A DNA stretch of 64,000 nt from Candidatus Saccharimonadia bacterium (GCA_038230095.1 JBBRNT010000003.1:9811-73810), one strand, 5' to 3'. Positions 268 through 64,000 are shown, counted from the first letter of the stretch. Translations and numbers: made by a program. Notes: generated by a model from the letters alone, not told the origin.

Positions 268-344
268 GGGGTTGTGGTGTAGAGGCCTAACATGTCTCCC
301 TGTCACGGAGAAGATCGCCGGTTCGAATCCGGTCAACCCCGCCA
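268..344 (+). tRNA. tRNA-Asp (anticodon GTC), CCA encoded
   Basis: Cloverleaf: acceptor ggggttg/caacccc, anticodon arm tctcc-ctGTCac-ggaga, T-arm gccgg-ttcgaat-ccggt, discriminator G + CCA. Confidence 0.9.
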
Positions 345-346
345 TG

Positions 347-377
347 AAAAGAGCGTCACGAAAGTGGCGCTTTTTTC
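347..377 (+). terminator. rho-independent terminator (agcgtcac-GAAA-gtggcgct + T6)
   Basis: 8-bp stem with GNRA loop followed by TTTTTT; a near-identical copy occurs at 1242-1267. Confidence 0.75.
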
Positions 378-397
378 ATGGCTAGATTCACAGATTT

Positions 398-41660: not shown

Positions 41661-41884
41661 TCGACAGGCGGCTCGCCCGGTATACTAGAAGGGTCTCTGC
41701 CTCATTCGCTGATGGCTGCTTATTTTTCTCTGTTATATTCTTTTTGGGAGCCTAAGATTGCTCCTGGCCTTGGCCTGGATGCTGCGGGCACCCACCTGCT
41801 ACTTGGCAGGGAAAGAATGTGCGGTCGGGCGGTGAAGCGGAGCGCAATTATTTGACGGCTATGGCCGTCCTTCTCGTTGGCGAT

Positions 41885-41924: not shown

Positions 41925-42000
41925 CAGGGTGTAGCTTAGTTGGTAAAGCGCTGGGCTGGGGGTCCAGAGACCGCAGGTTCAAGTCCTGTCACCCTGACCA
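41925..42000 (+). tRNA. tRNA-Pro (anticodon GGG), CCA encoded
   Basis: cagggtg acceptor, anticodon arm ctggg-ctGGGgg-tccag, T-arm gcagg-ttcaagt-cctgt. Confidence 0.88.
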
Positions 42001-43640: not shown

Positions 43641-44041
43641 AGCTAGATTGCTAGATGATCGCTTAGGCTGCAAGGCCTGGGAGGAAAGTCCGGACAGCAT
43701 AGAGTAGGACGGTTGCTAACGGCAACCGGGAGTACGTTCGACCATTCTTTCTCTCGAGAAAAGACCGGTCGAGCCAAGCCTAGGGAAAGTGCCACAGAAA
43801 CGAAACCACCCAGCGTAAGCTGGGAACGGGTGAAACGCGCGAGGTAAAAGCTCGTAGTCGCCATGGGTGACCATGGTGGGAGGCAAACCCCGTCCGCTGC
43901 AAGGCAGTTAGTCTACCCCAAGGGGCGTTACTCGCGTCGACTAACGGGTGTCCGCACGAGACTATTGGCAACAATAGTCCCAGATAGATGATCATCGCCC
44001 TGCAAGGGGAGACAGAATCCGGCTTACCGGCAATCTGGCAC
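43641..44041 (+). ncRNA. rnpB: RNase P RNA, bacterial type A
   Basis: GGAAAGTCCGG (P4 5' strand), gccacAGAAA, ACAGAATCCGGCTTA (P4 3' strand), P1 pairing agattgc/gcaatct; about 400 nt without ORFs. Confidence 0.85.
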
Positions 44042-44045
44042 TAGA

Positions 44046-57123: not shown

Positions 57124-57969
57124 ATGACAGCAGCACTACGAACCTGGCGCGAGCTTACGCACAACGTTAACGGAACGGTGGTGCACTATGCCCATACTGG
57201 TAGTACCACACAGCCAGTACTAGTGCTCCTGCATGGCTTTCGGAGTAACCGCCATGGGCTAGATGCACTTACTGAGCAGCTGAGGGGGTACCAGGTCTTT
57301 GCTCCAGACATCCCCGGTTTTGGCCAGACTGAGCCTGTCAGCCCACCTATTACACTGGAGCGTCAGTCGGCCGTTCTAACGGCATTTATAGAACAAGTTG
57401 TGGCTGGGCCATTTACACTGATTGGCCACTCGCTAGGGGCATCCATTGCACTTCTCATGGCAGGCTCGTTTGGGGCGGAGTTGCAATCGGTAGTGCTCAT
57501 AAGCCCGGTTACCAAGCCCACACGCTTGTTGAGCGTTTTTATCCATATCTACTTTAGGATGGCATTGCTGCTTCCGGATAAGATAAAGCAAATGTGGTTT
57601 GGTAACAAGACAATGGTCTGGCTCGTAGACCGCTGGATGTTTCGCACCGGGACCAAGCACGCTCAGAACCGGATCATATCCCAGGATTGGAGTAACATTA
57701 ATGAGAACCGTCCCGAAATTCTTATTCGGACGACCTTAAGCTACGAGTCTACACGTTTCGAACGCGCAGCCAAGCAAATACTCATGCCAGTCTACTGCAT
57801 TGGTGGTGACAGTGATCCGCTTGTTCCAGTTCGCAAACTCAGGCGCGTGGCGCGCACTATACCGCATGCCAAACTTGAGCTACTACCGGGCAGGGGACAC
57901 CTGTTCCCGGTAGAAGAGCCGCAATACGCTGGTAAGCTTATACGTACCTGGTTCGAGGCTCAGGACTAG
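57124..57969 (+). CDS. alpha/beta hydrolase
   Basis: HGFRSN oxyanion region, GHSLG nucleophile elbow, C-terminal His in GRGHLFPVEEP. Confidence 0.65.
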   Translation: MTAALRTWRELTHNVNGTVVHYAHTGSTTQPVLVLLHGFRSNRHGLDALTEQLRGYQVFAPDIPGFGQTEPVSPPITLERQSAVLTAFIEQVVAGPFTLIGHSLGASIALLMAGSFGAELQSVVLISPVTKPTRLLSVFIHIYFRMALLLPDKIKQMWFGNKTMVWLVDRWMFRTGTKHAQNRIISQDWSNINENRPEILIRTTLSYESTRFERAAKQILMPVYCIGGDSDPLVPVRKLRRVARTIPHAKLELLPGRGHLFPVEEPQYAGKLIRTWFEAQD

Positions 57970-58160
57970 TCTGCGTAGGGCTTACTTCGGAGCTCGCTAA
58001 GGTATTGGTTCACAGCCGCTAGGTCATGAGTGACATAGTCTGGCTTGACCGCAAACGCGGCCTCATATGCTCGTTCGAACTGTTCACGCTCAGATTTACT
58101 CTGAATGCGCTCGCCAAACTGTTGTGATTTTGGCTTCGATCTAATAATTTCTTTTGCCAT
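57966..58160 (-). CDS. small hypothetical protein (64 aa)
   Basis: ORF only. Confidence 0.3.
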   Translation of the reverse strand: MAKEIIRSKPKSQQFGERIQSKSEREQFERAYEAAFAVKPDYVTHDLAAVNQYLSELRSKPYAD

Positions 58161-58339: not shown

Positions 58340-58445
58340 TAGCTTAGAATTTCTTTCTCCTCTTTCTTGGTACTTTTGTTTCGGCAAAAGTACCCAAAAC
58401 CATGCGAGACTACGAGCCGCCTTCCGGCGTACTCATGCTCGCTGA
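58340..58445 (+). repeat. structured repeat element, copy 1 (hairpin ggtacttttg-tttcgg-caaaagtacc + second stem-loop)
   Basis: About 95% identical to 63453-63556 over about 105 nt; not protein-coding in a common frame. Confidence 0.6.
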
Positions 58446-58586
58446 AGCTGTATTTTTTCGATGCTCAGGAGTGGCTGGAGGAGGCGGAAGGAGGGCAGCG
58501 AGGGCGTGGGAGGGTAGGTGGGAGGTTGAAGGAATGATCGGTAGGAGCTAGAATGATGGTTGTTCTTGGTTAATTACAGTATGACG

Positions 58587-58965
58587 CGGGGCTGACCAGC
58601 TTTGACGTTTGGACTTTTACAACCTAGCTTGCAAGCCGTAGGTATGCGTTAAATCCACCAATCAATAGATGCAAACTCTATCGTATCGCGCGTGAAGGCT
58701 CTGTTCGCAGCTCCTTCATTCGCACCAGCTTTCGCCTAATCGCCTAAGCCATCGACCTCCTGACGCCAGATAGGGGCCGGCCGGTGCCAAATTATCTGAC
58801 TGCTTTACAACTGAGATATGCGTTGTAATTAAGACTACAATCTGCTCCTCATTCTTATTTCGTTTACTTCAAGAGGATGGGGCTAAGACAACAAAGTAAA
58901 CTACGCTTGTAGACGGCTGGGTTGTATCCAGACGGACCCGGGTGCAATTCCCGGCAGCTCCTCCA
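58587..58965 (+). ncRNA. ssrA: tmRNA (SsrA)
   Basis: 5' GGGGCTGA + ctttgacg (cf. E. coli GGGGCUGAUUCUGGAUUCGACGGG); 3' ggacccgggtgcaattcccggCAGCTCCtCCA (cf. E. coli ggacgcggguucaacucccgcCAGCUCCACCA); G3:U wobble in acceptor; resume site aatagatGCAAAC (cf. AAUAGUCGCAAAC); tag ORF 58670-58738. Confidence 0.9.
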
Positions 58966-58998
58966 AAAGCGCCTCAGCTCTTGCTGGGGCGTTTTTGG
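58966..58998 (+). terminator. terminator after ssrA (agcgcc...ggggcg + T5)
   Basis: Weak stem, clear T-run. Confidence 0.45.
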
Positions 58999-59019
58999 AG
59001 GGATTAGAAAGTAACAGCC

Positions 59020-59044
59020 ACTCACGAGTGAGTGGCTGATTTCT
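59020..59044 (-). terminator. hairpin cagccactca-cgag-tgagtggctg downstream of the minus-strand gene ending at 59064
   Basis: Perfect 10-bp stem. Confidence 0.55.
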
Positions 59045-59063
59045 CCTGTTAAGGAGGAGGTTA

Positions 59064-59582
59064 TTAGCAGTAGTTGGGGTGGACCCCCATCATTTGGTTC
59101 CAGCTGGCCGTCTGGCTGCGGATGATCCCATTGAGGCGCCGGGCGACGTCACCAAAGGTGATTGAGTCGAAGAGCACACCCCGGGCGGCCTCTTGGCTTG
59201 CTAGGGTCTCGAACCGAGCCAGGTGCACCAGGACTTCGGGGTTGGTGACGGGCAGCTGCACTGCACGCCTCCGGGGCTCGTGGTGGGTGCAGACAATTCT
59301 CGACTGCTCGTGCCAGGCTGCCGGCCAGCTTCGCATGAGCTGCTCCAGCTCAGTTGCCCAGCCGTGGGTAGCGTCCGAACTCAGCCAGTGCAGGGCGAGT
59401 GGGTGGTGTACCTCGCCAAACGAGCGGTATGTCACCTCTGCCCCCATGTATTGGGCATCGTCGAGCCAGTAGTGATAGGCCTTGGCAGTGACATCGGTCG
59501 TGCCGCGGGTCCGGACAATGTCCATCCGCAGCGCCAGCTTGCTACTGCCCATTGCTTCGAAAAGCCATCGTGTGTCGGTCAA
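59064..59582 (-). CDS. hypothetical protein (172 aa)
   Basis: ORF; pair of 25-nt direct repeats in its upstream region (59600-59680). Confidence 0.45.
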   Translation of the reverse strand: MTDTRWLFEAMGSSKLALRMDIVRTRGTTDVTAKAYHYWLDDAQYMGAEVTYRSFGEVHHPLALHWLSSDATHGWATELEQLMRSWPAAWHEQSRIVCTHHEPRRRAVQLPVTNPEVLVHLARFETLASQEAARGVLFDSITFGDVARRLNGIIRSQTASWNQMMGVHPNYC

Positions 59583-59983
59583 GGTACTTCCTCCAGTTGC
59601 CTAGGCCTAGGCCATCGGCTATGTGTTGGGTGTGGGGTACTGCGCCAATTGTCTAGGCAGGGCCATCGACTATGGACTTGATGCTGCTGCAATCCCATTC
59701 AGGATTGGGCCCATGATACCACAGATTGTTTGGAGGGAATTCGATCGACAGGTGCTTTTGTTGGCAAATACGTAAATGCAGACATGGCTGAAGCTGGTAT
59801 AGCGGTGTAAAACGAATTAATCCCGCATACTACTCTGGGGGAGTGGTGTAGAACGTGCGACGGGGCTAGTAGACCGAGAGCACTATCATGGCGCTTTACT
59901 TTGGCGGTAACGCTTGTATGGGGGGCGGGTTACTGGTAATACTGTAGCTACACGCCCTACGGCCAGTTCCTTGAGGAGATAGT

Positions 59984-60559
59984 ATGCGCTCACTACATTT
60001 GCTTGAACAGAACAGCGTCTGCGACCATGTCGCAGTGCTGAACGATTCCGCTATCCCCGGCGGAAGCGGAAGCTGCCCGCTCCTGGCCGACTGTACCGCC
60101 GGGCGGGTAGTGGGACACGGTGGGCTTCAATGCGTTCCCAGGACGGCCCAAGAGGTGGCGCGTAATGTTCTGAGCGGACGGGTGGCGCCCGAGGTAGAAC
60201 TGCGCGAACTGCGCCAATCGCCCTTGTTTCGGCCGGGTCAAGTGCGGTTCATTGACCCATATGCGGGGCAGGTGCCCGGTGAGGCTACCATTGACGCCAG
60301 CTTGGTTATGTCCCAGATTCGACAATGGGTGGCCGTTCTGCTGGATACACCCGTGCCCGAACCGGTGGCCCCCGCTGACCACTGCAAAAGGCACAGTGAG
60401 TACACCGAAGGCTGCTCCAACTGCGGTATGGCCCGGCTGGTCATGCTGGACCGGACGGACGTGGTCTGGCCAGGCGGCCGTCCCGCTCGAGTCCCGCGTG
60501 ATCAGTGCCGCTGCCCAGTACTACGCGTGGGTGACTTCTGCCCGGTTCACGGCGGATAG
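59984..60559 (+). CDS. hypothetical Cys-rich protein (191 aa)
   Basis: gaggag RBS 59965-59970. Confidence 0.45.
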   Translation: MRSLHLLEQNSVCDHVAVLNDSAIPGGSGSCPLLADCTAGRVVGHGGLQCVPRTAQEVARNVLSGRVAPEVELRELRQSPLFRPGQVRFIDPYAGQVPGEATIDASLVMSQIRQWVAVLLDTPVPEPVAPADHCKRHSEYTEGCSNCGMARLVMLDRTDVVWPGGRPARVPRDQCRCPVLRVGDFCPVHGG

Positions 60560-60714
60560 CCACACAGCGCTCAGTTGTCTTCGGATGACTGGGCGCTTTC
60601 ATTTGCCTTGAATAATTTCTAATCTAGAGTACTATTGCTGTCATCTGGCAATCGCCAGGGTACACGCCACCAATAAGGGTTCGCCATGAGGTGCACAGAT
60701 AGAAAGGTAGGCTC

Positions 60715-61413
60715 ATGGACTCGTCTACGGCCACTTTATCAGAAGCAGATACCGACCTCCTCAATGCCATTCAAGGCGGTATACACCCGGACCGACTGTC
60801 GACGGGGGTTAAGCTGGAGGTACTCCGGCATGCGATTGGCGTACTCACCAAAATGGGTGGCAAGTCGCCTGGCTTTCGGCCCCTGTCAGGCCGGTACCCC
60901 GAGACCGGATCGTTCTCGCCCTACGTAGACTTGCTGTACCCAGCCGGCCTTGGTGAGACCACGAAGGTCAATCAGATCTTTCGTATGGAGTCTGTCGAAA
61001 TAGGCGGTTTCAAGAAGGGTAAGCGAGCGCCGCACAAGTACGTGCGCAAGCATCATGCTCAGGATGACGTCCGTTGGGTGACGCACGACCACTACCTGGT
61101 AACTCAGGACGGCCTCATGTTGCGGGAAAGCCAGACGATCTACCTACGGCGCGTAGGTGATGAACAGGAAAATATCTGCGCCGCCGTAGATATGACAGTC
61201 ATGGACGATGCGGCGATCCTGGCATTCTTGGAACTGCCATACACGAGTGATTTCGGGGTGCTGTCATCGTGCCTCAAGAGCATCCGAATCAGCATTCGTG
61301 CCAGCATCGCAGAATCTCGTGACCGGCTTGCTAGCCTGGAGGCGATGCACGCTCAGATCGACGCTGTCTGGCACCGAGCTGGCGGGCCCACCGGTAGCTT
61401 GCCGAGGTACTGA
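60715..61413 (+). CDS. hypothetical protein (232 aa)
   Basis: ORF with good coding periodicity. Confidence 0.45.
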   Translation: MDSSTATLSEADTDLLNAIQGGIHPDRLSTGVKLEVLRHAIGVLTKMGGKSPGFRPLSGRYPETGSFSPYVDLLYPAGLGETTKVNQIFRMESVEIGGFKKGKRAPHKYVRKHHAQDDVRWVTHDHYLVTQDGLMLRESQTIYLRRVGDEQENICAAVDMTVMDDAAILAFLELPYTSDFGVLSSCLKSIRISIRASIAESRDRLASLEAMHAQIDAVWHRAGGPTGSLPRY

Positions 61414-61593
61414 CCAATGCAGCACCCCCAGTAATGGGGGTGCTTTTACGTATAACCTAAAAACCCCGCAGACTGCAGGGGTGCAAGAGCGATTGGGAGG
61501 TATTATCTCCAGGTGGTGGAGCCGCGTTAGTGGCGGCAATACTCATTATCTCTCGAAATACTATTGTATTAAGCACAACAACTATGGCCACCA

Positions 61594-61830
61594 TTGACCA
61601 ATCCCTATGGCCCGGCCATTATAGAGCCAGTGAATAATTTTGACGCCTACACTCAGGAGCGAAGGGTGCTACCGTGCGCGGATAAGCTGAGCTTTGCGAC
61701 AAACGAGCTAGCAGCAGCAGCCGCGAGCTATGCGGTTTGGCAGAGGGGGAGTGAGAGTGCCAATGTGCGGTCCTATAAGTGCCGTTACTGTACGAGCTGG
61801 CACCTAGGCACGGACTATGAGGCGGAATGA
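61594..61830 (+). CDS. small hypothetical Cys-containing protein (78 aa; CRYCTSWH)
   Basis: ORF abutting the convergent nuclease gene. Confidence 0.3.
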   Translation: MTNPYGPAIIEPVNNFDAYTQERRVLPCADKLSFATNELAAAAASYAVWQRGSESANVRSYKCRYCTSWHLGTDYEAE

Positions 61831-63348
61831 CTACGTGGCGTAGTGTGGCTCGGCCGTGTTGCTTAGCTGAGCAAGCTCGGTAGGGCTGAGGGGCCGGAGC
61901 TCTATCTGGGAAGGGCGCTGCTCAAGTACTTGACGCAGTATTTTGTACACGTCCATATCGAAGCCCAGATCTAGTTTTTGGTACTCTGGATCACCAAATT
62001 CTGATTCAAGGAGGAGGGCCGTAACGCGCCATTGGTCGATAATAAAGCCATCGACCCGCTCTAGGTCGGCGGAACGCTCTAGCAGAAGGGCGGCTCCAGC
62101 AAAGGGCCATTTGCTCAGACGTTGGTCTGAGAGTGCCTGGGTAAGTAGCAGGTTGTAGCTGGCGGGGGAGATGGTACCCAGGCAGGCGCCCGAGCACTTG
62201 CCCAGTTGCTGGGCAAAGCAGGTACCTCGGGACTTATCTAGCCCCATGAGGCGGGGGCACAGGTGGTGCTCGGCAGTAATGCCTTCTAGGGTCTCGCGAG
62301 CCTCTTTGCGTGAGCGGTAGCCAATATGGATGGTATCTGGCGATAGTTCCTCGGAGTAATCACCAATATGGCCGGTAAGATAGCCTACAGCATTAGTTGT
62401 AAACTCTACAACAAATAAACGTTCTGCACGCCGCAGCTTACGGTTGTGGAGTGGCTGAAGCTCCTTAACCAGGCGTGACTCCAGGAGCAAGGCGCCAATC
62501 TCCCCGGCGGTTTTGATGGTGCGAATGTGGTGGGTTTGCTGAGCCAGGCGGAGCTCGCGGTACTGGCGATGGTCGTCGGACAGGTGGGACAGGACTCGCG
62601 ACCTAATATTAACGCTCTTGCCGACGTAGAGAGGTAGTGCTTGATCGTCTTCGAATACGTAGACACCTGGAGACTCGGGTAGGGTCTGGATAAGACTAGC
62701 GTCTAGATGAGGCGGTAGCGACTGGCGCTTGAGCTGCTGGGCTATTGCGGTGTTGAGGCTGTCTAGATCGTGGTCTGCTAAGATGCGATGCCAGAAATCC
62801 CAGAGCACCTTGGCATCGTCTAGGGCGCGGTGTCGGCGGGCCGTCTCAAAGCCAAAGCGCTGAATTATCTTCTCTAGGCTATGGCCGCGGTGCTCGGGGT
62901 AGAGCCAGCGGGAGAGTCGAACGGTGCAGAGTAGCTCTGGTTCAAAGCCCTGGCCAAGGCGCTTATACTCTTGCTTGATAAACGAATAGTCGAAGCGGAC
63001 ATTGTGCGCTACGAACAGCGCTCCATCAAGGATAGCCCTCAGCTCATCTGCCATGTCGGCAAAATGGGGGGCAGTGCGTAAGTCTGCATCTGTGAGGCCG
63101 GTGAGCTGGGTGATAAAGGCCGGAAGGCGGCTATCTGGGTTAAGCAGCGTATGGAAGGTGCGGACAACCCGGCCGCCCTCGACACGCACTACGCCAATCT
63201 CGGTAACCTTGCCGTAGTGGTAGTTGGCACCAGTAGTTTCAATGTCTATGAAGGCCAATGGCTGGTTGTAGTGCTTGGCTGCTATGGTACCCCTCCTTGC
63301 CGGACATGCTATGGACTTAATCATAACGCGAACAAAAGCCGTAATCAA
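61831..63348 (-). CDS. DnaQ-like DEDDh 3'-5' exonuclease fused to a GIY-YIG (UvrC/Cho-like) nuclease domain
   Basis: Exo I AFIDIETTG, Exo II HNVRFDYSFI, Exo III HRALDDAKV; GIY-YIG GVYVFEDDQALPLYVGKSVNIRSRVLSHL. Confidence 0.8.
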   Translation of the reverse strand: MITAFVRVMIKSIACPARRGTIAAKHYNQPLAFIDIETTGANYHYGKVTEIGVVRVEGGRVVRTFHTLLNPDSRLPAFITQLTGLTDADLRTAPHFADMADELRAILDGALFVAHNVRFDYSFIKQEYKRLGQGFEPELLCTVRLSRWLYPEHRGHSLEKIIQRFGFETARRHRALDDAKVLWDFWHRILADHDLDSLNTAIAQQLKRQSLPPHLDASLIQTLPESPGVYVFEDDQALPLYVGKSVNIRSRVLSHLSDDHRQYRELRLAQQTHHIRTIKTAGEIGALLLESRLVKELQPLHNRKLRRAERLFVVEFTTNAVGYLTGHIGDYSEELSPDTIHIGYRSRKEARETLEGITAEHHLCPRLMGLDKSRGTCFAQQLGKCSGACLGTISPASYNLLLTQALSDQRLSKWPFAGAALLLERSADLERVDGFIIDQWRVTALLLESEFGDPEYQKLDLGFDMDVYKILRQVLEQRPSQIELRPLSPTELAQLSNTAEPHYAT

Positions 63349-63452
63349 GATGGGGCTGGGTGGTTGGATTTGTGTTGCGTGCAGGTTGCTAGCGAGGGAA
63401 GAATTCTATCCCCAATACATCCATTTCAGTTATGGCCTATACTGCTAGTCCG

Positions 63453-63556
63453 AGAATTTCTTCGTTTCTTTCTTGGTACTTTTGTTTCGGCAAAAGTACC
63501 CAAAACCATGCGAGACAACGAGCCGCCGTTCCCGGCATACTCATGCTCGCGGATGA
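63453..63556 (+). repeat. structured repeat element, copy 2
   Basis: See 58340-58445; the inner stem of the second stem-loop differs by 4-bp-stem-preserving changes (cgcc/ggcg vs gccg/cggc). Confidence 0.6.
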
Positions 63557-63643: not shown

Positions 63644-63686
63644 GAGAAGAAAGGGAAACACCCTGCCGGGAGCCCGGCAGGGTGTT
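63644..63686 (-). terminator. hairpin aacaccctgccggg-agc-cccggcagggtgtt with A-tract on plus strand (T-tract for the minus-strand gene)
   Basis: 14-bp stem. Confidence 0.55.
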
Positions 63687-64000
63687 AGGACTCGAAGAGG
63701 CTTGGGTGGGGGTATGGGGCGAGGAGGGTGGGTTCGGCGGCTAGCACTGAAACGTCGCGGAGACGGATGTTGCTGTCAGCCGGCTCGAAGAGACGGATCT
63801 GAGGGTCATCCAGCCGGCGACCCCGGCGGATTAGCTTGCCCTGCACGTAGTACATGCCGGCGGGGATATTCCAGCTACAGGTGCTTCTAACAGCGCAGTG
63901 GCCACAGGAGCGGCTGTAGCTATTGCGTTGGCCGGTGCTCCAGGTGACCGGGATGGCGTTGACCTCGCGGGCACGAGCCACCAGCCGATTGCCTTCTGGG
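63685..64000 (-). CDS. 3' part of a gene continuing beyond the window end (hypothetical)
   Basis: Open frame to the window edge on the minus strand; high GC, so could be a shadow ORF. Confidence 0.25.
   Translation of the reverse strand, partial: PEGNRLVARAREVNAIPVTWSTGQRNSYSRSCGHCAVRSTCSWNIPAGMYYVQGKLIRRGRRLDDPQIRLFEPADSNIRLRDVSVLAAEPTLLAPYPHPSLFES

What the first reader, a model, noticed from the sequence alone, without database searches (positions are those of the whole stretch)
58340..63556. About 105-nt structured repeat in two copies brackets a 5.2 kb segment that starts with ssrA and carries uncharacterised genes
- Copies at 58340-58445 and 63453-63556 are about 95% identical and lie in the same orientation. 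They cannot be coding: the shared sequence translates in different frames in the two places.
- Each copy has a perfect 10-bp hairpin, ggtacttttg-tttcgg-caaaagtacc.
- Each also has a second stem-loop with a 4-nt loop (TTCC; GGAA on the other strand, a GNRA tetraloop). Its stem differs between copies but stays a 4-bp stem (CGCC/GGCG vs GCCG/CGGC), which is weak covariation.
- Between the copies lie ssrA, a G-quadruplex-type motif, four hypothetical genes (59064-59582, 59984-60559, 60715-61413, 61594-61830) and the exonuclease/GIY-YIG fusion.

tmRNA genes are classic integration hotspots. This looks like a decayed island or mobile-element remnant without an integrase. Alternatively the repeat is a cis-regulatory RNA motif shared by two promoters: both copies sit 100-170 nt upstream of minus-strand gene starts.
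Basis: seen in the sequence. Interest (0 to 1): 0.65.

Follow-up and report, generated by a model that had tools for sequence, protein, structure and literature searches.

The report
Dispersed hairpin-pseudoknot repeat, two copies
The two ~100-nt repeats are not the borders of an island at the tmRNA gene; they are two compact copies of a structured, non-coding repeat (a conserved hairpin with a pseudoknot) that is scattered through the genomes of many bacterial phyla and is absent from the Rfam RNA-family database.

Summary
There are exactly two direct copies in 64 kb (58346-58445 and 63453-63553), about 90% identical rather than 95%. Each has a perfect 10-bp hairpin and a second stem-loop kept intact by a compensatory G/C insertion.

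The island reading fails:
- ssrA lies inside the bracket, and its 3' end is not duplicated.
- There is no integrase.
- The exonuclease/GIY-YIG gene is a core Saccharibacteria gene.
- The GC-rich orphan ORFs do not coincide with the repeat boundaries.

The unit belongs to a very widespread family. Its invariant core is N4-CUUUUG-loop-CAAAAG-N4'-CAAAA followed by 2-7 nt complementary to the loop. Covariation supports both the outer stem and the loop-flank (pseudoknot) helix (score 0.358 versus 0.085 ± 0.009 in shuffles).

Family members are:
- intergenic and in either orientation, with no conserved neighbouring gene;
- often multi-copy, tandem or at contig ends;
- in one genome bounded by inverted repeats and TA.

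Rfam 15 has no model for the core. In Pseudomonas-type loci the TwoAYGGAY motif lies 40-70 nt away on the opposite strand.

The best reading is a selfish or mobile "repeat-sequence" element whose structured core acts in single-stranded form. A family of small RNA genes is the main rival. Which strand functions is unresolved.

The parts
58346..58445 (.). Repeat copy 1: the whole ~100-nt unit. It consists of a pyrimidine-rich leader, hairpin P1, the CAAAA linker, the loop-complement, the P2 domain and a tail. The functional strand is unresolved.
   Evidence: the repeat finder and BLAST self-comparison; alignment A1; covariance model hit of 53.3 bits.
58369..58394 (+). P1 hairpin of copy 1: GGTACTTTTG / TTTCGG / CAAAAGTACC. 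The inner CUUUUG/CAAAAG half is fixed by the search patterns used in every scan, so its invariance is assumed here and was not tested. The outer 4 bp covary across the family.
58395..58401 (+). CAAAA linker plus CC. The CC is complementary to the last two loop bases (GG). In this subfamily that makes a minimal 2-bp pseudoknot contact, which covaries with GC/GC in L105 and L010.
58404..58442 (+). P2 domain of copy 1: GCGAG...CTCGC encloses GAG-C-CGCC-UUCC-GGCG-UA-CUC. It ends in the tail CTCATGCTCGC, which resembles the family tail CCCUGCGAUGCUC.
   Evidence: MFE folds; comparison with L105, L058, L012 and others.
63453..63553 (.). Repeat copy 2: the whole unit.
63475..63500 (+). P1 hairpin of copy 2, identical to that of copy 1.
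63501..63507 (+). CAAAA linker plus CC of copy 2.
63510..63550 (+). P2 domain of copy 2. Its apical stem is GCCG-UUCC-CGGC. Relative to copy 1 a G-C pair has been inserted next to the loop and the basal pair is lost, so the stem length is preserved.

Best explanation
**What it is.** The two repeats are separate copies of a compact (~100-nt) member of a widespread, uncurated family of dispersed non-coding elements. They do not mark the ends of anything.

**The family core (about 41 nt).**
- A 10-bp hairpin. Its inner half CUUUUG/CAAAAG was fixed in every search pattern. Its outer 4 bp covary.
- A CAAAA linker, also fixed in the search patterns.
- Then 2-7 nt that pair with the 3' part of the hairpin loop, giving H-type pseudoknot topology.
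- Around this core, lineages add a UCGC...GCGA hairpin, a P2 hairpin with a conserved tail, long hairpin domains (in Pseudomonas-type loci the TwoAYGGAY domain), or a MITE shell.

**How it most likely works (inferred, not shown).** The element behaves as a selfish 'mobile/repeat sequence'. It is copied to new intergenic sites by a factor encoded elsewhere. That factor would recognise the folded core in single-stranded RNA or DNA. The constant A/U tract and linker would be the recognition surface, and the variable helices would only need to pair.

**In this window.** One copy landed, or was duplicated, upstream of ssrA and the other upstream of the Cho-like gene. Any effect on the neighbouring genes would be secondary.
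For: **Shown**
- The window holds exactly two copies. A 50-nt stretch is identical in both, and the differences in P2 are compensatory.
- Logan contigs of the same organism break inside the hairpin on both sides. This fits a repeat, though the two window copies alone would be enough to cause such breaks.
- The exact hairpin occurs in more than 118 genome loci from many phyla. The relaxed core occurs in more than 120 metagenome contigs and more than 120 viral or proviral contigs.
- Loop-flank pairing: the mean helix is 3.81 bp against 2.28 ± 0.11 in 2000 shuffles, with 53 distinct helices. On 68 gap-free sequences the covariation score is 0.358 against 0.085 ± 0.009 (0 of 500 shuffles reach it) and 0.05-0.10 when partners are slid.
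- 27 different perfect outer stems were found in the unbiased set.
- No neighbouring protein family recurs and no transposase is adjacent.
- Orientation relative to flanking genes: ++ 20, -- 19, -+ 7, +- 6.
- 14 of 100 loci have 2-3 copies within 8 kb, 7 of them direct and 7 inverted. L084 is a tandem array of ~950-nt units. Copies often sit at contig ends.
- The repeated units are 250-700 nt long depending on the genome.
- Pseudoflavonifractor copies are about 680 nt long, with 14-15-nt inverted ends and TA on both sides in 4 of 5 complete copies.
- No Rfam 15 family covers the core.
Against: - Mobility is not demonstrated. I found no empty-site versus filled-site pair, no trans-acting enzyme, and no target-site duplication or inverted ends on the window copies.
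- The window copies are much shorter than most family members. Their pseudoknot is only 2 bp.
- The element also occurs in tiny Patescibacteria genomes, and as a single conserved locus in A. baumannii and in Pseudomonas-type genomes. That pattern fits a cellular RNA gene as well as a selfish element.
- The functional strand is unresolved. The short pseudoknot connectors fit only the hairpin->CAAAA strand. The A·C:G·U ratio of 16:1 in the outer stem and the better consensus fold (-127.8 versus -112.3 kcal/mol) favour the other strand.
- The genome-wide copy number in the source organism is unknown.
Confidence: 0.55

Rival explanations
1. The unit is a gene for a small structured RNA, present here as two paralogues. 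It would act in trans, for example by binding or sequestering a protein, or through its variable or C-rich segments. Multi-copy genomes would then reflect gene-family expansion or capture by MITEs.
For: - Structure is conserved with compensatory changes between the two window copies and across phyla.
- The element is present in reduced Patescibacteria genomes.
- It is a single conserved locus in A. baumannii and in about ten Pseudomonas-type genomes.
- There it is physically joined to TwoAYGGAY, an Rfam motif proposed to bind CsrA but never tested.
- Orientation independent of neighbouring genes is also what an independent sRNA gene would show.
Against: - No convincing promoter or intrinsic terminator flanks either window copy on either strand (and inspection).
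- Tandem arrays, contig-end positions, and inverted ends with TA flanks are more typical of selfish repeats.
- The polarity cannot be assigned.
- Sequence outside the 41-nt core is not conserved across the family.
Confidence: 0.27
2. In this genome the unit is a shared cis-acting control element for the two minus-strand genes downstream of it: the 64-aa gene at 57966-58160 and the Cho-like exonuclease at 61831-63324. It would act either as a 5'-leader RNA or as a palindromic operator for a common regulator.
For: - Both copies lie 129-186 nt upstream of minus-strand gene starts in the same orientation.
- On the minus strand P2 is capped by a GGAA (GNRA) tetraloop.
- Several indicators favour that strand: A·C:G·U of 16:1, the better consensus fold, and the better minus-strand MFE in the window.
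- Cho-type nucleases are damage-inducible in other bacteria. This comes from general knowledge and was not tested here.
Against: - Across the family there is no conserved downstream gene and no orientation bias.
- The promoter-like sites predicted for both genes lie between the repeat and the gene. That would leave the repeat outside the transcripts, though this evidence is weak.
- A protein operator would not require the loop-flank covariation that is seen.
- Relatives' Cho-like loci that I fetched lack the module.
Confidence: 0.1
3. The two copies are the direct-repeat boundaries (att-like) of a decayed genomic island or mobile element that inserted at the tmRNA locus.
For: - The repeats are direct and 5.1 kb apart, with ssrA between them.
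- The ORFs next to the ssrA 3' end are orphans with raised GC3: 0.78 (172 aa), 0.68 (191 aa) and 0.67 (232 aa), against 0.60 ± 0.05 in the rest of the window.
Against: - The repeat is 5' of ssrA and does not duplicate its 3' end.
- No integrase or other mobility gene is present.
- The Cho-like gene inside the bracket is a core gene with typical composition.
- Deviant composition also occurs outside the bracket.
- The same unit occurs singly, inverted or tandem at unrelated loci in many phyla.
Confidence: 0.03

Closest known systems
TwoAYGGAY RNA motif (Rfam RF01731; Weinberg et al. 2010, PMC2864571)
   Same: - The taxonomic spread is the same: Gammaproteobacteria, Clostridiales and human gut.
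- The function is unknown.
- In Pseudomonas-type loci and other gammaproteobacterial loci it lies inside the same repeated or conserved element, 40-70 nt from the hairpin/pseudoknot module.
   Different: - TwoAYGGAY is defined by two hairpins with AYGGAY loops. The window copies have no such domain, and most family members lack it.
- Rfam's orientation for it is opposite to the hairpin->CAAAA direction.
- The module described here is not part of the Rfam model, and it is far more widespread.
Mobile/repeat sequence candidates (MRSC) of the Breaker-lab surveys, for example MRSC-65-2 (PMC11109978)
   Same: - Covariation-supported structure.
- Many copies per genome in some species.
- Inconsistent orientation relative to neighbouring genes.
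- Diverse phyla.
- The authors note that the structure may matter in DNA form.
   Different: MRSC-65-2 is described as a single long stem with UYCCGG repeats, sometimes near a transposase gene. The present core is a hairpin plus pseudoknot with a CUUUUG/CAAAAG/CAAAA signature, and no transposase was seen nearby. I compared it with the text only, because the consensus figure is not available.
MITEs of the IS630/Tc1-mariner type and REP/REPIN-type extragenic repeats
   Same: - Short, non-coding, intergenic and multi-copy.
- They cause assembly breaks.
- In Pseudoflavonifractor the ~680-nt unit has 14-15-nt inverted ends flanked by TA.
   Different: - The window copies have no inverted ends or target duplication.
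- MITE and REP families are usually lineage-specific, whereas this core is shared across phyla.
- REPs are simple palindromes without a loop-flank helix.
- No RAYT or transposase link was found.
Classical H-type pseudoknots with an A-rich third loop (for example the preQ1-I riboswitch aptamer or viral frameshift pseudoknots)
   Same: The topology is the same: a hairpin, an A-rich linker, then pairing of the 3' tail with the hairpin loop, joined by very short connectors of 0-2 nt.
   Different: - Here stem 1 is 10 bp and constant in sequence, while stem 2 is free to vary. No conserved unpaired pocket exists.
- There is no gene association.
- A 5-nt linker is short for spanning a 10-bp stem.
- This comparison is from general knowledge of those structures and was not tested here.
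Genomic islands integrated at ssrA (tmRNA gene)
   Same: An ssrA gene with orphan, GC-deviant ORFs immediately 3' of it.
   Different: - No integrase.
- No duplicated ssrA 3' end.
- The repeats bracket ssrA itself plus a core gene.

Membership tests
tmRNA-associated genomic island | Direct repeats formed by duplication of the 3' end of ssrA at the distal island boundary | tested here: not met
   The 22-nt and 16-nt ssrA 3'-end probes, with up to 3 mismatches allowed, find only ssrA itself in or near the segment. The actual repeat lies 143 nt upstream of ssrA.
tmRNA-associated genomic island | Integrase or recombinase, or other mobility genes, inside the segment | tested here: not met
   Pfam and PHROGs find nothing of that kind in the ORFs between the copies. 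The only annotated gene is the RNase_T + GIY-YIG (Cho-like) gene.
tmRNA-associated genomic island | The segment is absent from relatives, leaving one repeat copy | not testable with these tools
   The closest database relatives of the Cho-like protein are only 45-51% identical and show no shared synteny.
TwoAYGGAY RNA (RF01731) | Two hairpins with AYGGAY terminal loops that match the Rfam covariance model at or above 43 bits | tested here: not met
   No TwoAYGGAY hit in the window at the gathering score, nor around copy 1 at E <= 10. Relatives L101, L017, L110, L123, L139, L203 and L133 do have it (43-59 bits) next to the module.
MITE (non-autonomous DNA transposon) | Terminal inverted repeats | tested here: not met
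   The window unit ends (AGAATTTC... / ...CTCGCKGA) are not inverted repeats. Pseudoflavonifractor relatives do have 14-15-nt TIRs.
MITE (non-autonomous DNA transposon) | Target-site duplication flanking each copy | tested here: inconclusive
   None at copy 2, and only a possible AGCT at copy 1. Four of five complete Pseudoflavonifractor copies have TA on both sides, but this cannot be distinguished from a TIR that includes TA.
MITE / REP-like dispersed repeat | Many copies per genome at unrelated intergenic sites, in either orientation | tested here: inconclusive
   This is met for the family. For the source genome only 2 copies in 64 kb are known, plus assembly breaks at the repeat. The rest of that genome could not be scanned.
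REP/REPIN | Association with a RAYT (TnpA-REP) transposase in the genome | not tested
   No transposase-like neighbour appeared in 100 loci. Whole genomes could not be searched.
H-type RNA pseudoknot | Two interleaved helices, each supported by covariation | tested here: met
   - Family level: P1 outer pairs have 3-5 pair types. The two pseudoknot pairs nearest P1 are paired in 82% and 94% of sequences, with 5-6 pair types. Overall score 0.358 against 0.085 in shuffles.
- In the window copies the second helix is only 2 bp (GG/CC).
cis-regulatory leader / riboswitch | Consistent position upstream of, and co-oriented with, a particular gene class | tested here: not met
   No recurrent neighbouring family. 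Orientation classes are ++ 20, -- 19, -+ 7, +- 6.

The most novel reading that the evidence does not exclude
**The structure.** The CUUUUG-loop-CAAAAG-N4-CAAAA hairpin/pseudoknot may be a previously unrecognised class of structured nucleic acid that is extremely widespread. It occurs in Patescibacteria, Bacteroidota, Bacillota, Pseudomonadota, Gemmatimonadota, Melainabacteria and proviruses.

**What it may do.** It may act as the common functional core of many lineage-specific repeat elements, and of the orphan TwoAYGGAY RNA.

**Both strands.** Each strand shows its own structural constraint. That would point to a life cycle with single-stranded intermediates of both polarities, or to a bidirectionally used module.
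Probability: 0.35. Interest if true: 0.75.

Novelty: new variant of a known kind. Interest (0 to 1): 0.55.

Why it matters
**Annotation.** These repeats should not be used to call an island at ssrA in this Saccharibacteria genome. The Cho-like gene and ssrA are resident.

**The family.**
- The finding exposes a compact 41-nt hairpin/pseudoknot signature shared by non-coding repeats in at least ten bacterial phyla and in proviruses.
- Rfam has no model for it.
- It gives a genomic context to the orphan TwoAYGGAY motif.
- If the core is the recognition structure of a trans-acting enzyme or RNA-binding protein, it identifies a widespread and unstudied system. That system could be a mobility mechanism or an RNA-protein partnership.
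- The 100-nt Saccharibacteria version would be a minimal natural form to test.

**Practical use.** The signature explains assembly breaks in several MAGs. It can be masked or annotated with a simple covariance model.

Tried and rejected
- **ARAGORN for tmRNA:** missed it; Rfam found it.
- **Rfam:** gathering or permissive thresholds on the window, on 16 + 18 + 11 + 2 + 6 loci. Nothing covers the module; the only hits are TwoAYGGAY next to it.
- **Literature search for the sequence strings:** only unrelated primers. TwoAYGGAY papers give no function. The Breaker-lab surveys contain a category that fits but, as far as the text shows, not this motif.
- **Clustering flanking ORFs to find a partner gene:** only housekeeping families such as SDR epimerase, ABC/ABC-F and RecQ. 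The 3-kb contig flanked by two copies holds a sigma factor and a SpoVA-like gene, with no transposase.
- **Annotated collections:** no match in E. coli. The A. baumannii hits carry no annotation.
- **RNAalifold on a MAFFT alignment of the window-like subfamily:** recovered only P1, because the other helices were not aligned in register.
- **Strand assignment:** tried by tetraloop counts (UUCG 7 versus CGAA 1, too few), by MFE differences (confounded by G-richness), by non-Watson-Crick pair types, and by consensus folds of orthologues. The results conflict.
- **Synteny test for the island:** impossible, since no close relatives exist. The exact-protein look-up of P0001 was not on record.
- **Considered and dropped:** CRISPR repeat, group II intron domain V, pistol or other small ribozymes, IS200/IS605 guide pairing, IS110 bridge RNA, type III antitoxin repeats, and LexA or other operators. 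In each case a defining feature is absent, such as tandem array, conserved catalytic core, adjacent gene, or spacing. These comparisons rest on my own knowledge, not on tests.

Full report
**1. The observation**

The window contains two direct copies of a ~100-nt unit at 58346-58445 and 63453-63553.
- Identity is 90.2% over 102 aligned columns, including a 2-nt indel. A 61-nt core is 98% identical.
- The 26-nt hairpin GGTACTTTTG-TTTCGG-CAAAAGTACC occurs exactly twice with up to 3 mismatches allowed, against none in 100 shuffles.
- A covariance model of the core, run without filters over both strands of the 64 kb, scores 53.3 bits at the two sites. The next best hit is 10.5 bits.
Copy 2 has a G inserted 5' and a C inserted 3' of the UUCC loop and loses the basal pair, so a 4-bp stem is kept.
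- Both strands of both copies fold better than all 200 shuffles, with z between -3.5 and -4.5.
- ssrA is at 58588-58965 on the + strand (Rfam, 108 bits). ARAGORN did not call it. Copy 1 is therefore 143 nt upstream of ssrA, beyond a promoter-like site at 58526-58554.

**2. The island reading fails**

- Islands at tmRNA genes normally sit 3' of ssrA and are bounded by a duplicated ssrA 3' end (general knowledge). Here ssrA is inside the bracket, and no partial copy of its 3' end exists in the window.
- Pfam and PHROGs find no integrase or other mobility function among the enclosed ORFs.
- The largest enclosed gene is an RNase_T exonuclease fused to GIY-YIG, UvrC_M and Cho_C domains. It has 7234 homologues at E <= 1e-20, at 45-51% identity. 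Sources name them from Candidatus Saccharibacteria, Saccharimonadales and Patescibacteria. This identifies the organism and shows that the gene is resident.
- The 232-aa ORF is an orphan.
- GC3 is raised in the 172-aa ORF (0.78, about +3.3 SD) and only mildly in the 191-aa (0.68) and 232-aa (0.67) ORFs next to the ssrA 3' end. The Cho-like gene is typical (0.62). An ORF outside the bracket is just as deviant (0.76). The background is 0.60 ± 0.05.
- Some foreign or fast-evolving DNA may therefore lie 3' of ssrA, but it is not delimited by the repeats.
- The presence/absence test in relatives cannot be done. The nearest relatives are too distant and share no synteny.

**3. The repeat belongs to a large family**

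- Two Logan contigs of the same organism end and start inside the hairpin.
- In most hits the hairpin is followed by CAAAA and then by bases complementary to the 3' part of the hairpin's own loop. Examples are CTTGAT/ATCAAG, CTTGAC/GTCAAG, GGCGGC/GCCGCT and AAGGC/GCCTT.
- The mean contiguous pairing is 3.81 bp against 2.28 ± 0.11 when loops and flanks are shuffled among sequences (maximum 2.72 in 2000 shuffles). There are 53 distinct helices of 3 bp or more.
The outer four pairs of the hairpin showed 27 different perfectly paired combinations.
- On 68 gap-free sequences with a 6-nt loop, including the window's:
  - the covariation score for P1 plus pseudoknot is 0.358 against 0.085 ± 0.009 (0 of 500 shuffles reach it), and 0.05-0.10 when partners are slid;
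  - there are 156 double-sided changes against 57 ± 5;
  - the two pseudoknot pairs nearest P1 are paired in 82% and 94% of sequences, with 5-6 pair types.
- The window copies belong to the commonest subtype: loop UUUCGG, then CAAAACCAU. There the loop-flank contact is only GG/CC. It switches to GC/GC in L105 and L010.

**4. Behaviour of the family**

- No protein family recurs next to the motif. The few shared neighbours are housekeeping genes.
- There is no orientation bias relative to flanking genes: ++ 20, -- 19, -+ 7, +- 6.
- The repeated unit is 250-700 nt long depending on the genome.
- The core is usually preceded by a UCGC...GCGA hairpin. It is followed by a C-rich stretch, a P2 hairpin and a tail resembling CCCUGCGAUGCUC, after which long hairpin domains follow. 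The window unit stops exactly at that tail (CTCATGCTCGC), so it is an unusually compact version.
- 14 of 100 loci hold 2-3 copies within 8 kb, 7 direct and 7 inverted. Two direct copies 5 kb apart is therefore ordinary for this family.
- L084 is a gene-free tandem array of ~950-nt units.
- Many hits lie at contig ends.
- In Pseudoflavonifractor phocaeensis the ~680-nt unit has 14-15-nt inverted ends with TA on both sides in 4 of 5 complete copies. That is the signature of IS630/mariner-type MITEs, although a TIR that includes TA cannot be excluded. No transposase is nearby.
- The element is also present as a single conserved locus in A. baumannii, where P1 is CCTAC.../...GTAGG, and in about ten Pseudomonas-type proviral or chromosomal loci.

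**5. Relation to known families**

- Rfam 15 has no family for the core at gathering or permissive thresholds.
- TwoAYGGAY (RF01731) is found 40-70 nt from the module in gammaproteobacterial and Pseudomonas-type elements at 43-59 bits, always on the opposite strand. Its reported taxa match. Its function is unknown, and CsrA binding has been proposed but not tested.
- The Breaker-lab category 'mobile/repeat sequence candidate' describes exactly this behaviour. The example given there, MRSC-65-2, is a single long stem with UYCCGG repeats and appears to be a different motif.

**6. Unresolved: which strand functions**

For the hairpin->CAAAA strand (the window + strand):
- The connectors of the pseudoknot are 0-2 nt, 0-1 nt and 5-6 nt. 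This fits classical H-type geometry only in this polarity (the geometry argument is from general knowledge).
- C(UUCG)G loops outnumber their complement 7 to 1.
- A hairpin with compensatory changes carries an invariant G·U on this strand.

For the opposite strand:
- Among unbiased hits with one non-Watson-Crick pair in the outer stem, A·C outnumbers G·U 16 to 1. Thirteen of the 16 are at one position, in several different stem contexts. On the other strand this is a U-A/U·G alternation.
- The consensus fold of ten orthologues is -127.8 against -112.3 kcal/mol, with P1 unbroken.
- Rfam orients TwoAYGGAY this way.

Both strands may be used, or P1 and the loop helix may be alternative states.

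**7. Verdict**

- The island interpretation is not supported.
- The element is a compact member of a widespread, apparently uncurated hairpin/pseudoknot repeat family.
- I favour a selfish repeat whose structured core is recognised in single-stranded form by a factor encoded elsewhere (confidence about 0.55).
- A family of small RNA genes is the main rival (about 0.27).
- A local cis-regulatory role is a minor possibility (about 0.1).
- Mobility, polarity and partner remain to be shown.

Noticed in passing
window 338-381 and 1229-1272: A 44-nt direct repeat (93% identical). Its first copy starts in the last 7 nt of tRNA-Asp (268-344) and runs into the 3' flank. This looks more like a classical tRNA-end att duplication, bracketing about 0.9 kb, than the repeat under study does.
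   Followed up: no
window 58588-58965: The tmRNA gene is found by Rfam (108 bits, full length) but not by ARAGORN. The Rfam alignment has a long insertion in the tag-coding region, which suggests an unusually long tag.
   Followed up: partly
window about 58470-58535 (+): A G-rich tract between repeat copy 1 and the ssrA promoter-like site. It is not shared with copy 2.
   Followed up: no
window 59064-61413: Three ORFs immediately 3' of ssrA have no Pfam or PHROG match and raised GC3: 0.78 (172 aa), 0.68 (191 aa) and 0.67 (232 aa). The 232-aa protein matches only itself among 5.8 billion proteins. This may be foreign or fast-evolving DNA at the ssrA 3' side, independent of the repeats.
   Followed up: partly
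window 63657-63686: A perfect 14-bp inverted repeat (AACACCCTGCCGGG/CCCGGCAGGGTGTT) with a T-rich tail on the minus strand. It is probably the terminator of the 98-aa ORF at 63685-63981, and it separates that ORF from repeat copy 2.
   Followed up: no
window 41691-41847, 41925-42000, 43643-44042: A 6S RNA (53 bits), tRNA-Pro and RNase P RNA class A (247 bits) lie within 2.4 kb of each other, forming a small cluster of stable-RNA genes.
   Followed up: no
L023, L025, L048, L057, L071 (Pseudoflavonifractor phocaeensis): A ~680-nt non-coding repeat with ends AATTTTAGTTTAT...ATAAACTAAAATT, flanked by TA. It looks like a MITE of IS630/mariner type and carries the hairpin/pseudoknot module about 70 nt from one end. 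One 395-nt internally deleted copy is in L057.
   Followed up: partly
L084 2700-5500 (Algoriphagus aestuarii): A 2.8-kb gene-free stretch made of tandem ~950-nt units, each with one copy of the module.
   Followed up: partly
L123 3723-3909; L139 8470-8540: A C4 antisense RNA with its a1/b1 target (P1/P7-phage type) lies about 0.9 kb from the module in a Pseudomonas-type provirus. A type II hammerhead ribozyme lies in another provirus-like locus that also carries the module.
   Followed up: no
L011, L024, L094, L055 (Mucilaginibacter), about 60-110 nt upstream of the module: The repeated unit in these genomes also contains a conserved hairpin, CGTCATTGCGAGGAACGAAGCAATCC. This seems to be a separate, common Bacteroidota repeat module.
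   Followed up: no
L364 14083-16970 (Saccharimonadales relative): A Ro60/TROVE gene followed by a small ORF and RtcB. This is a Ro/Y-RNA-type RNA-repair cluster in a Patescibacteria genome, unrelated to the finding.
   Followed up: no
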